Sequence record: PP554575
Origin: Escherichia phage PMBT16
Length of the DNA stretch: 64,000 nt
Reading direction: 5' to 3' (one strand)
Part shown: positions 9,596-11,187 of the stretch, piece by piece
Numbering within the stretch: the first letter of the stretch is position 1
Layout: each line of letters begins with the position of its first letter
Made by a program: the position numbers and the translations under genes
Notes under the pieces: model-generated
The model's database searches: none
What the model saw: the letters and a program-made list of their open reading frames with translations, nothing else
What the model was told of the DNA's origin: nothing

Positions 9596-9961
9596 ATGGA
9601 ACAAATGAACGATCAAGCGTCGGTTGCGATGAACGAGCAAGAACAACCTCAAGAATTTTTCTTAGGGTTAAGTAAAGATCAAGTGTCTCTTCTGCTAGTG
9701 CTTTCTTCTTTCATGGGAAGACTTCAGGAGCTCACACAACAGCCAGAGGCTGAACAATTATTTCAGGCTCTGCGTGAAGAAGAAAAATATCGTCGTTTGG
9801 ACTATGCCTTAGGTTGGGTAGCTCAACAACGAGATATGCTGATGGCCCTCTCTGGGACCACAAGTTTTGCAATGGGCCTGTTGGCTCAAGTTCAGGACAA
9901 ATTAATTCAAGCAGGGTTTGCACACACGGCAAACACTAACGAAGAACAAGGAGACAAATAA
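9596..9961 (+). CDS. hypothetical protein (121 aa)
   Basis: ORF track; GGAGA RBS. Confidence 0.6.
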   Translation: MEQMNDQASVAMNEQEQPQEFFLGLSKDQVSLLLVLSSFMGRLQELTQQPEAEQLFQALREEEKYRRLDYALGWVAQQRDMLMALSGTTSFAMGLLAQVQDKLIQAGFAHTANTNEEQGDK

Positions 9962-11187
9962 TGAGCGTTATTCAACAATTCGCTAACCCGATGAATCCGC
10001 GTGAAACTGTTTTACTGGCTCACGGCATGATTAAACGCGTCAGCATCAAGCCTATCAAAGGTGCTGATCCTACAACAGGTATTAAAACCACTGTGTGGCA
10101 AGGTAAGAAAATTGAGTCCAGCCACACCATCTCTTTACTGATTTCTGAACTGGATTCCTCTGATAACCTGCTTCAAGGTGGCGAAGAAGTCTGGATCAGC
10201 ATGGGTGATAAGCTGCTTAAACCGGGCCATCAAGACTCTGTCTCTGTTAAGATTGATGACAAGTGGGAAACCGTAACGCCAGGATGGATCGTAAATATCC
10301 CTTTGAAGGCAAACGAGCATAATGGTAAGACCTATTACAAAGGCTCACTGGCTAAGATGGTTAAGCTGGGCGCAGGAGAGGCTCCAGCAGCGACTCAGCA
10401 GCAAAAACAGCAACAAGGTGCACAATCACAAGGCCAGAAGCAGAAACCTCAGCAGAATGCCAATCAGGACGTTTTACGCATCTATGGCGATGTGACTCAG
10501 ATTGTTGGCAACGTGGTTACTGTTAATGACCACAAGATTGGCGAAGGTGCTATGGTTGTAACTGATGAGCAGCTTAAAGACCTGGTGGTAGGTGGTCGTG
10601 TTGCAGCCATTGTTGACAAAGACACCGGAAACATTATCAGTGGTTTCAAAGCCTATCCACCTAAGGCAGAGAACGGCACTCAAGGCTCTGGTGGCAAGCG
10701 TAAATCATCTTACGACCCTATCGGTGTGGAGACGGGACATAGCATCAATGCGTTGCAGATCATCCTGGATCGAGGGTTTAAGGTAGACGACCCACTAGGC
10801 GTGGCTAAAACACTGCACGTAGTCACCATTGAGCTTAAGAAAGAGTATGCTCAAGCCACCAACCGAACTGAAGATGAAGTAGGTGCCAGTGTCGGTAATG
10901 CAGTGTTGAACGCTTGTCGCCGTATTGACAAGAAAACGAAAGTTGATGATTTTGCAGCGGCAATTACTGCAGAAGCAAAAGATGTCTTGACTAATCTGGC
11001 TGAGCCGTTGTACGATTGGATCAAGAACGGTGCTGGGTCAACTGACCATCAAGAACCTCAGGCTGCCAAACAGGAAGCCGCTCCACAGCAAAACACTGTA
11101 GACGCTCCTCCTGTAAATGATGAGGAAGATGACCCGATGGATCAGAATCCAGCACAGTATGAGTTCGATGACTCGATCCCTTTCTGA
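9961..11187 (+). CDS. single-stranded DNA-binding protein-like (acidic C-terminal tail DDSIPF)
   Basis: Q/G-rich low-complexity linker and acidic tail ending EFDDSIPF as in bacterial SSB; next to polymerase/helicase genes. Confidence 0.55.
   Translation: MSVIQQFANPMNPRETVLLAHGMIKRVSIKPIKGADPTTGIKTTVWQGKKIESSHTISLLISELDSSDNLLQGGEEVWISMGDKLLKPGHQDSVSVKIDDKWETVTPGWIVNIPLKANEHNGKTYYKGSLAKMVKLGAGEAPAATQQQKQQQGAQSQGQKQKPQQNANQDVLRIYGDVTQIVGNVVTVNDHKIGEGAMVVTDEQLKDLVVGGRVAAIVDKDTGNIISGFKAYPPKAENGTQGSGGKRKSSYDPIGVETGHSINALQIILDRGFKVDDPLGVAKTLHVVTIELKKEYAQATNRTEDEVGASVGNAVLNACRRIDKKTKVDDFAAAITAEAKDVLTNLAEPLYDWIKNGAGSTDHQEPQAAKQEAAPQQNTVDAPPVNDEEDDPMDQNPAQYEFDDSIPF

What the first reader, a model, noticed from the sequence alone, without database searches (positions are those of the whole stretch)
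9961..11187. SSB-like protein with a host-type acidic tail and a long glutamine-rich linker
The 408-aa protein ends in EFDDSIPF, nearly identical to the bacterial SSB C-terminal tip that recruits host replication and repair proteins, and has a Q/G-rich linker similar to bacterial SSB linkers. The phage may use tail mimicry to hijack or sequester the host SSB interactome.
Basis: partly seen in the sequence, partly recalled or inferred. Interest (0 to 1): 0.45.

Follow-up and report, generated by a model that had tools for sequence, protein, structure and literature searches.

The report
Non-canonical phage SSB with host-type tail
This gene of an rV5-like E. coli phage most likely encodes the phage's own single-stranded-DNA-binding protein, built from two predicted OB folds, a helical bundle and a bacterial-type acidic tail. 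That makes it an unusual version of a familiar protein rather than a special host-hijacking device.

Summary
Window 9961..11187 (+) is a 408-aa ORF ending in EFDDSIPF, with a 30-residue segment that is 43% glutamine.

The window is a Vequintavirus (rV5-like). The protein is rV5 gp209, member of phrog_4477 ("unknown function").

There is no sequence link to any SSB family in Pfam, PDB sequences or hhalign. AlphaFold2 models show:
- a basic N-terminal OB fold (residues 1-139);
- a second compact OB fold (170-235);
- a four-helix bundle (251-357);
- a disordered tail with net charge -12.

A profile of the helical domain finds 131 clusters. Of 119 representatives with a tail, 92 end in ...PF. Distant members keep the gene order primase/helicase, then family-A polymerase, then this gene.

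So "SSB-like" is supported, but only by prediction and context. "Mimicry to hijack the host" is not specifically supported:
- the tail is a family-wide SSB hallmark;
- the Q-rich segment joins the two OB folds rather than preceding the tip;
- rV5 and many relatives carry 15 more conserved residues after IPF.

That cap also occurs on canonical SSBs of unrelated phages. It is the most novel lead here.

The parts
9961..11187 (+). CDS of the SSB-like protein (408 aa plus stop); orthologue of rV5 gp209 / ORF 214, member of phrog_4477
9948..9953 (+). Shine-Dalgarno-like AAGGAG 7 nt upstream of the ATG; the ATG overlaps the TAA of the upstream ORF (TAATG), which suggests translational coupling
   Evidence: (sequence read directly)
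9961..10377 (+). OB fold 1 (residues 1-139): beta-rich, basic (pI 9.1, net +3, 4 Trp), conserved NGKTYY motif. Predicted main ssDNA-binding domain.
10378..10467 (+). Glutamine-rich disordered linker (residues 140-169; 13 Q of 30) between the two OB folds; variable in length and sequence among homologues
   Evidence: pLDDT 25-35; alignment; composition
10468..10665 (+). OB fold 2 (residues 170-235): compact five-strand barrel with a short helix between strands 3 and 4, conserved SGFKAY motif. Absent from phi92-type relatives.
10666..10710 (+). Short G/K-rich disordered linker (residues 236-250)
10711..11031 (+). Four-helix bundle (residues 251-357). It is the most widely conserved part of the family, with near-invariant G255, G259, H260, N263, H286, T289, K293, G312, L316 and C319. 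No specific structural relative was found. Inferred role: oligomerisation or a partner site.
11032..11184 (+). Disordered acidic C-terminal tail (residues 358-408; net charge -12). It ends in the SSB-Ct-like tip EFDDSIPF, encoded at 11161-11184.
   Evidence: pLDDT below 50; composition; family-wide ...PF ends
11161..11265 (+). Mosaic patch covering the last 8 codons, the stop, the 8-nt spacer and the first ~23 codons of the next gene. It diverges strongly from rV5, whereas both flanks are about 97-99% identical. In rV5 this patch encodes the 15-aa cap APVGLQYGKSRIHAL.
   Evidence: pairwise alignment. The window-type junction occurs in 17 phage records and the rV5-type in 27, out of 116 related records.
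11196..11774 (+). Downstream endonuclease VII-like gene, annotated as a putative homing endonuclease in some records (192 aa; phrog_1035; no Pfam hit)
   Evidence: annotations
9596..9961 (+). Upstream 121-aa ORF of unknown function (phrog_7310), probably translationally coupled. It is conserved next to the homologue in Klebsiella phage KpS11 but not in phi92.
1868..3946 (+). Context: DNA primase/helicase (phrog_239)
4005..6782 (+). Context: T7-like family-A DNA polymerase (925-aa ORF; phrog_17 and phrog_8888)
   Evidence: rV5 annotation

Best explanation
The ORF encodes the phage's replicative single-stranded-DNA-binding protein. It belongs to a non-canonical SSB family (phrog_4477) found in rV5-, phi92- and related phages.

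Proposed mechanism (inferred):
- The basic N-terminal OB fold, helped in the rV5-type proteins by a second small OB fold tethered through a flexible Q-rich linker, coats ssDNA at the fork.
- The conserved four-helix bundle mediates self-association or cooperativity, or offers a docking surface.
- The disordered, strongly acidic tail ending in DDSIPF-COOH works like the SSB-Ct of bacterial SSB and the C-terminal Phe tail of T7 gp2.5. It recruits the phage's T7-like DNA polymerase and primase-helicase. Because the tip is nearly the host sequence, it probably also recruits host SSB-binding proteins.

Shown here: the ORF, its conservation, the tail motif, the disorder and charge pattern, the predicted folds and the gene neighbourhood. 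Inferred: ssDNA binding, the oligomeric state and every partner.
For: Structure and sequence features:
- OB1 is basic and Trp-rich, and the tail has net charge -12.
- P407 and F408 are invariant. In 92 of 119 family representatives the protein ends in PF, and the median net charge of the last 20 residues is -7.

Gene context:
- The gene lies downstream of primase/helicase and the T7-like DNA polymerase, on the same strand.
- The same order is seen in phi92 and in two distant metagenomic members on 45-kb and 13-kb contigs.

Absence of another candidate:
- No canonical SSB OB domain is detectable in six-frame translations of the window and three related loci. No other window ORF has such a tail.
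- The rV5 genome paper lists ligase, polymerase and helicases but no SSB (PMC3606486).

Weaker support:
- Weak Foldseek matches to viral SSB, DUF2815 and helix-destabilising proteins.
- A few GenBank records already call homologues SSB.
Against: - There is no sequence-level homology to any characterised SSB. Pfam gives nothing at E <= 10, PDB sequences give nothing, and hhalign of the N-domain profile against a canonical SSB profile gives probability 0.4%.
- The existing "SSB" annotations trace only to PHROG hits on the acidic tip.
- The helical domain has no functional analogue among known SSBs.
- Only part of the phage genome was checked for another SSB. Non-canonical SSB types (gp32-like, gp2.5-like) could not be excluded by profile search.
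- No experimental data exist for any family member.
Confidence: 0.68

Rival explanations
1. Host-interactome decoy. The main role is to present a host-type SSB-Ct so as to sequester or redirect host SSB-binding proteins (ExoI, RecQ, RecJ, PriA, chi, Ung, and others). ssDNA coating would be secondary or absent.
For: In E. coli and Klebsiella phage members the tip is identical or nearly identical to the host tip: EPPMDFDDDIPF in KpS11, P0049 and P0052, and DDSIPF here. The tail is long, disordered and very acidic.
Against: The same tail type occurs throughout a family of 131 clusters from diverse metagenomes. It is also the general SSB hallmark used for phage-encoded partners (PMC5928155). Two conserved OB folds and a conserved place in the replication module are not needed for a decoy. 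The rV5-type alleles cap the tip with 15 residues, which should block canonical binding.
Confidence: 0.1
2. A replisome or recombination accessory protein rather than the bulk SSB. Examples would be a RecO-like mediator or annealing protein (OB plus helical domain), a helicase-loading adaptor, or a primosome factor that binds ssDNA locally and bridges partners through the helical bundle.
Against: RecO-type mediators bind SSB tails; they do not carry one. There is no Pfam or PHROG link to RecO, DnaT, PriB or loaders. The RecO matches score no better than plain SSB or RPA OB folds. No other SSB candidate was found.
Confidence: 0.14
3. Not a DNA-binding protein. The OB-like barrels would serve protein or ligand binding, and the PF end would be a convergent short linear motif of unrelated function.
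Confidence: 0.05

Closest known systems
Bacterial SSB (E. coli SSB; Pfam PF00436)
   Same: It has an OB-fold DNA-binding core (predicted), an intrinsically disordered low-complexity segment, and an acidic C-terminal tip ending in IPF (DDSIPF versus DDDIPF). Some family members carry the exact host string PPMDFDDDIPF.
   Different: There is no detectable sequence homology. The chain has two OB folds and no helix-bearing tetramerising core. An extra conserved four-helix bundle lies between the OB folds and the tail. The Q-rich linker sits between the OB folds. The protein is 408 aa against 178 aa.
Phage T7 gp2.5 (and the DUF2815 / gp2.5-like phage SSBs)
   Different: There is no Pfam match. The tip sequence is of the bacterial type (D-D-x-I-P-F) rather than ...DGDF. 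The protein has a second OB fold and a helical bundle. Its gene order relative to the polymerase differs from T7.
phi92 gp156 and the rest of phrog_4477 (uncharacterised)
   Same: These are true homologues. They share the N-terminal OB domain, the helical bundle, the acidic tail and the position downstream of the polymerase.
   Different: phi92-type proteins (about 260-315 aa) lack the Q-rich linker and the second OB fold. phi92 gp156 carries the 15-aa cap after IPF, whereas the window protein does not.
RPA-type multi-OB ssDNA-binding proteins (eukaryotic and archaeal RPA)
   Same: Tandem OB folds are joined by flexible linkers in one polypeptide. OB2's best matches are RPA DNA-binding domains: 4gnx, 3e0e, 8aa9, 2k50.
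   Different: There is no sequence homology, no heterotrimer partners and no winged-helix or zinc motif. The tail is bacterial-type.
Phage HK620 SSB (cognate SSB of the Sak4 annealase)
   Same: It is a precedent for a phage SSB whose last six residues (NDYPPF, resembling DDDIPF) are needed to recruit a phage-encoded partner rather than a host protein (PMC5928155).
   Different: HK620 SSB is a distant homologue of canonical SSB and a tetramer. No Sak4 homologue was sought or seen next to the window gene.

Membership tests
Canonical SSB family (Pfam PF00436) | Significant sequence or profile match to the SSB OB domain | tested here: not met
   No PF00436 hit even at E <= 10 for the window protein or 6 homologues. 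hhalign of a 92-sequence N-domain profile against a canonical SSB profile gives probability 0.4%. No PDB sequence hit.
Canonical SSB family (Pfam PF00436) | OB-fold ssDNA-binding core | tested here: met
Canonical SSB family (Pfam PF00436) | Disordered linker followed by an acidic C-terminal tip ending in [ILV]PF with a free C-terminus | tested here: met
   Residues 358-408 are disordered (pLDDT < 50) with net charge -12, and the protein ends DDSIPF followed by a stop. This is not met in the rV5, KpS11 and phi92 alleles, which add 15 residues.
Canonical SSB family (Pfam PF00436) | High-affinity, sequence-independent ssDNA binding and homo-oligomerisation | not testable with these tools
   Needs biochemistry (EMSA, SEC-MALS).
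phrog_4477 (rV5 gp209 / phi92 gp156 family, function unknown) | Full-length match to the family HMM | tested here: met
   E 4.1e-173, residues 1-408 against profile positions 1-393 of 393. The protein is 99.3% identical to rV5 gp209 over 408 aa.
T7 gp2.5-like / DUF2815 phage SSBs | Sequence or fold match to gp2.5 / DUF2815 | tested here: inconclusive
T7 gp2.5-like / DUF2815 phage SSBs | Acidic tail with C-terminal Phe, encoded alongside a T7-type polymerase and primase-helicase | tested here: met
   Tail. Neighbours phrog_239 primase/helicase and phrog_17 DNA polymerase. The same context holds in distant members. The physical interaction itself was not tested.
RecO-like recombination mediators | RecO sequence signature; OB plus helical plus zinc-binding domains; binds rather than carries an SSB tail | tested here: not met

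The most novel reading that the evidence does not exclude
Phage SSBs of several unrelated folds, this family included, exist in two interchangeable tail states. One is a free host-type tip (...DDxIPF-COOH, as in this window). The other is a capped tip, in which IPF is followed by a conserved 14-16-residue peptide: AP[IV]GLQY plus a short hydrophobic end, for example APVGLQYGKSRIHAL in rV5 and APIGLQYPALLNCM on canonical SSBs.

The cap would be a functional module that either masks the SSB-Ct from the host SSB interactome (or from SSB-sensing defences) or adds a second partner site. Phages would switch state by exchanging a short 3' cassette that often travels with an endonuclease VII-like, possibly homing, gene.

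Evidence that does not exclude this reading:
- Four tail alleles occur among proteins at least 95% identical.
- A roughly 100-nt mosaic patch lies exactly at the tip/endonuclease junction.
- 17 records have the window-type junction and 27 the rV5-type junction.
- The cap is found on 38 IMG/VR contigs with free synonymous variation, which indicates protein-level selection.
- A related endonuclease N-terminus lies directly downstream in three unrelated contigs.
- No paper in the library contains these peptide strings.
Probability: 0.3. Interest if true: 0.7.

Novelty: new variant of a known kind. Interest (0 to 1): 0.45.

Why it matters
The rV5-, phi92- and Phapecoctavirus-like phages are common E. 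coli, Klebsiella and Salmonella phages and are used in therapy cocktails. The rV5 genome description (PMC3606486) names no SSB. Assigning this role to phrog_4477 fills a gap in their replication module.

It would also define an SSB architecture (OB, optional second OB, four-helix bundle, SSB-Ct) that sequence searches cannot link to known SSBs.

Phage SSBs have been reported as triggers of a bacterial defence system (title of Sasaki et al. 2023 on AbpAB, seen in a reference list). Knowing which protein is the SSB, and that its tip comes in free and capped versions, therefore matters for interpreting host range and defence-escape mutants.

If the cap proves functional, it would challenge the view that SSB tails must end in a free Phe.

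Tried and rejected
- Sequence routes to a known family all gave nothing: Pfam on the protein and six homologues, PDB sequence searches with the protein and with the helical-domain profile, and hhalign against a canonical SSB profile.
- The GenBank and PHROG "SSB" labels on homologues were checked. They rest only on matches to the acidic tip (phrog_18154, phrog_7364, phrog_44), so they are not independent evidence.
- I suspected the roughly 270-aa family members might be N4-type SSBs. tblastn of P0085 against 50,697 phage records hit only rV5-, phi92-, Phapecoctavirus- and Certrevirus-like phages, so I dropped the idea.
- I considered that the cap AP[IV]GLQY... might be a DNA-level feature (a homing-endonuclease target or a ribosome-binding site for the downstream gene). 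This was rejected as the sole explanation. Synonymous positions vary freely across 38 contigs while the peptide is kept, and phi92 and KpS11 have the cap with no endonuclease downstream.
- I compared the cap by eye with beta-clamp-binding motifs (QL[SD]LF), PIP boxes and ssrA-like degrons. None fits convincingly, and none was tested.
- The upstream 121-aa ORF has no Pfam hit. It is conserved only within Vequintavirinae.
- Full-text searches found no study of this protein or of the cap.
- The check for a second SSB was incomplete. It covered only the window, three related loci and the product names in 50 kb of KpS11.

Full report
**Observation.** An AAGGAG lies 7 nt upstream, and the ATG overlaps the stop of the preceding ORF (TAATG). 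The product ends ...NPAQYEFDDSIPF. Residues 140-169 contain 13 Gln among 30 residues. The description is therefore correct, with one anatomical correction explained under Anatomy.

**Origin.** The 3.5 kb around the gene is 97-99% identical to many Vequintavirus (rV5-like) E. coli phages, with phage inoa the best match at 98.8%. The protein is 100% identical to that of phage bov10K2 and 99.3% identical to rV5 gp209 / ORF 214, which is annotated as hypothetical. It matches phrog_4477 ("unknown function") over its full length at E 4e-173.

Related proteins at 27-40% identity occur in Mydovirus, Certrevirus, Seunavirus-like and other large enterobacterial myoviruses. The C-terminal half alone matches phi92 gp156 and other Stephanstirmvirinae proteins.

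**No sequence link to a known family.** Pfam gives nothing, even at E <= 10, for the protein or for six homologues. PDB sequence searches with the protein and with a profile give nothing meaningful. A profile-profile comparison of the N-terminal domain (92 sequences) with a canonical SSB profile gives 0.4% probability. The few "SSB" annotations on homologues in GenBank trace to PHROG matches that cover only the acidic tip. They add no independent evidence.

**Anatomy from structure prediction.** An AlphaFold2 model built on 24 homologues, and a second model of residues 168-363 built on 43 sequences (mean pLDDT 92), show the following parts.

| Residues | Feature | Notes |
|---|---|---|
| 1-139 | N-terminal beta domain (OB1) | pLDDT 80-92 |
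| 140-169 | disordered Q-rich linker | pLDDT 25-35 |
| 170-235 | compact five-strand barrel (OB2) | short helix between strands 3 and 4 |
| 236-250 | short G/K-rich linker | disordered |
| 251-357 | four-helix bundle | pLDDT 97-98 |
| 358-408 | disordered acidic tail | net charge -12 |

- several RPA, Stn1 and MCM OB domains.

Aligned lengths of 79-103 residues exceed the size of the middle barrel, so these matches belong to the N-terminal domain.

The helical bundle finds only generic helical proteins in the same search. Foldseek against viral models finds uncharacterised homologues and, weakly, DUF2815, SSB and helix-destabilising proteins.

OB1 is basic (pI 9.1, net +3, four Trp), whereas the tail carries net -12. 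The Q-rich segment therefore tethers two OB folds. The counterpart of the bacterial linker before the tip is the separate P/Q/A/E-rich stretch at 358-400.

**The family.** A profile of the helical bundle, searched against 1.84 billion representative proteins, finds 131 clusters (98 at E <= 1e-10). Most are 260-300 aa and consist of an N-domain, the bundle and a tail, which is the phi92 gp156 architecture. The roughly 400-aa form with the Q-linker and OB2 is the minority.

Of 119 representatives that possess a tail:
- 92 end in PF;
- 8 end in PW;
- 6 end in [DEV]F;
- 6 have PF plus one or two residues;
- 2 have PF plus a longer cap.

The median net charge of the last 20 residues is -7. The acidic ...[ILV]PF end is therefore a defining trait of the whole family, not a peculiarity of coliphages.

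**Genomic context.** In the window the gene lies on the same strand as, and downstream of, a DNA methyltransferase, a primase/helicase (1868-3946) and a T7-like family-A polymerase (4005-6782). It is followed by an endonuclease VII-like gene (11196-11774; phrog_1035, no Pfam hit).

phi92 has polymerase, nucleotidyltransferase, gp157 and then gp156. Two distant metagenomic members (29-33% identity) sit in the same order: primase or DnaB-type helicase, PolA, a few small ORFs, then the family member.

No canonical SSB OB domain is detectable in six-frame translations of the window or of three related loci. No other window ORF has such a tail. The rV5 genome paper names ligase, polymerase and two helicases but no SSB (PMC3606486).

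**Interpretation.** The best-supported reading (about 0.68) is that this is the phage's replicative SSB, from a non-canonical family. Two OB folds would bind ssDNA, the helical bundle would give self-association or a docking surface, and the disordered acidic tail would recruit partners.

By analogy with T7 gp2.5 (established knowledge) and with HK620 SSB, whose last six residues recruit the phage annealase Sak4 (PMC5928155), the first partners to expect are the phage's own polymerase and primase-helicase. The near-host tip sequence makes host SSB-binding proteins plausible partners as well.

All binding steps are inferred. Rival readings are a pure host-interactome decoy, a RecO-like or loader-like accessory factor, and a protein that does not bind DNA. 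They are less consistent with the family-wide tail, the two OB folds and the conserved synteny, but only biochemistry can exclude them.

The tail is real and host-like. However, it is the ordinary SSB hallmark, and it is conserved in relatives from many environments.

More tellingly, the free tip is not constant even among near-identical proteins. rV5 itself, a 533-member cluster, KpS11, phi92 and others continue after IPF with 15 conserved residues, AP[IV]GLQYG[KR]x[KRF][IL][HY][AC][LIF]. Host partners contact the C-terminal Phe and its carboxylate; for DnaG, docking models place it on R452 (PMC5872125). Such a cap should therefore block canonical binding unless it is removed.

**Tail polymorphism.** Among proteins at least 95% identical to the window protein there are at least four tail alleles:
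- ...YEFDDSIPF*
- ...YAFDDDIPF*
- ...YDFCDDIPF*
- ...YDFCDDIPFAPVGLQYGKSRIHAL*

Aligned with rV5, the window is nearly identical on both sides. A patch of about 100 nt is replaced; it covers the last 8 codons, the stop or cap, and the first ~23 codons of the endonuclease gene. Of 116 related phage records, 17 have the window-type junction and 27 the rV5-type. In rV5 the endonuclease start codon lies inside the cap's Q-Y-G codons.

**The cap is not confined to this family.** A degenerate DNA pattern for DIPFAP[IV]GLQY finds 38 IMG/VR contigs. Most encode canonical SSBs (MASRGVNKVILVG...) on 40-56-kb phage contigs and end ...DDDIPFAPIGLQYPALLNCM. Others carry different N-terminal domains.

Codons vary freely at synonymous sites while the peptide is kept, so selection acts on the protein. 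The same pattern occurs in only 8 of 185,579 species-representative bacterial and archaeal genomes. Seven of the eight are gammaproteobacteria (Vibrio, Pseudoalteromonas, Oceanisphaera, Providencia, Glaciecola) and one is a Parasphingorhabdus MAG.

In three unrelated contigs the gene directly downstream shares the zinc-ribbon-like N-terminus of the rV5 endonuclease. No paper in the searchable library contains these peptide strings. What the cap does is unknown. Masking the tip, a second partner site, and a cleavable or degron-like extension are all open. This is the most novel lead from the analysis, although the window's own allele is the uncapped one.

**Verdict.**
- The SSB-like call is supported by fold prediction, tail, charge pattern and synteny, but not by sequence homology or experiment.
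- The hijacking mechanism is unproven and is not required by the data.
- The protein is best filed as a new architectural variant of a known kind (SSB). It belongs to an uncharacterised family that is already present, unnamed, in the databases.

Interest is moderate (0.45). It would rise if the capped and free tail states prove to be a functional switch.

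Noticed in passing
L001 13225-13272 (rV5), L002 9171-9218 (KpS11), L004 4421-4468 (phi92); also L005-L042 and L044-L051: A conserved 14-16-residue cap follows the SSB tip IPF. It reads AP[IV]GLQY plus a short hydrophobic end. It occurs in this family and on canonical SSBs of unrelated phages, 38 IMG/VR contigs in all, and synonymous sites vary freely. Only 8 hits occur in species-representative bacterial and archaeal genomes. No literature hit was found for the peptide. Its function is unknown.
   Followed up: partly
window 11161-11265 versus L001 13201-13345: A mosaic patch of about 100 nt lies at the junction of the SSB tip and the endonuclease gene, within otherwise 97-99% identical DNA. 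At least four tail alleles occur among proteins at least 95% identical. Of 116 records, 17 are window-type and 27 rV5-type; the remaining junction types were not examined.
   Followed up: partly
L032, L039, L041 (downstream of the capped SSB genes); L001 13244-13867: Genes that share the Cys-rich N-terminus of the rV5 endonuclease VII-like protein (aa 10-43, 50-68% identity) lie immediately after capped SSB genes in three unrelated viral contigs. In rV5 and L041 the start codon falls inside the cap's Q-Y-G codons. This is either a mobile SSB-tail/endonuclease cassette or a conserved SSB-resolvase gene pair.
   Followed up: partly
window 10711-11031 (residues 251-357): The four-helix bundle carries near-invariant H260, N263, H286, T289, K293 and C319, plus a GxETGH motif. 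This suggests a metal-, ligand- or peptide-binding site.
   Followed up: no
phage records MG065662, MG065672, MG065674, MG065677 and others: Sixteen records named "Campylobacter phage" with host C. jejuni are about 97% identical to E. coli rV5-like phages across this region. This looks like mislabelling or contamination of those entries.
   Followed up: no
window 4005-6782 versus L001 5871-8822: The DNA polymerase is one continuous 925-aa ORF in the window. In the rV5 record it is annotated as a 775-aa CDS plus a separate 111-aa "DNA polymerase" CDS, with small ORFs between them. The cause could be a frameshift or sequencing error, an intervening element, or an annotation difference.
   Followed up: no
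BFVD entries A0A0F6THK0 (168 aa) and A0A0F6THU5 (100 aa), E. coli O157 typing phage 4: In this close relative the gene appears as two separate short proteins that are 97-100% identical to parts of the window protein. The gene is either split or frameshifted there, or the genome was mis-annotated.
   Followed up: no
window 9596-9961: A 121-aa ORF (phrog_7310, no Pfam hit) ends with a TAA that overlaps the SSB-like gene's ATG. It is conserved in the same position in KpS11 (34% identity) but not in phi92. It may be a co-translated partner.
   Followed up: partly
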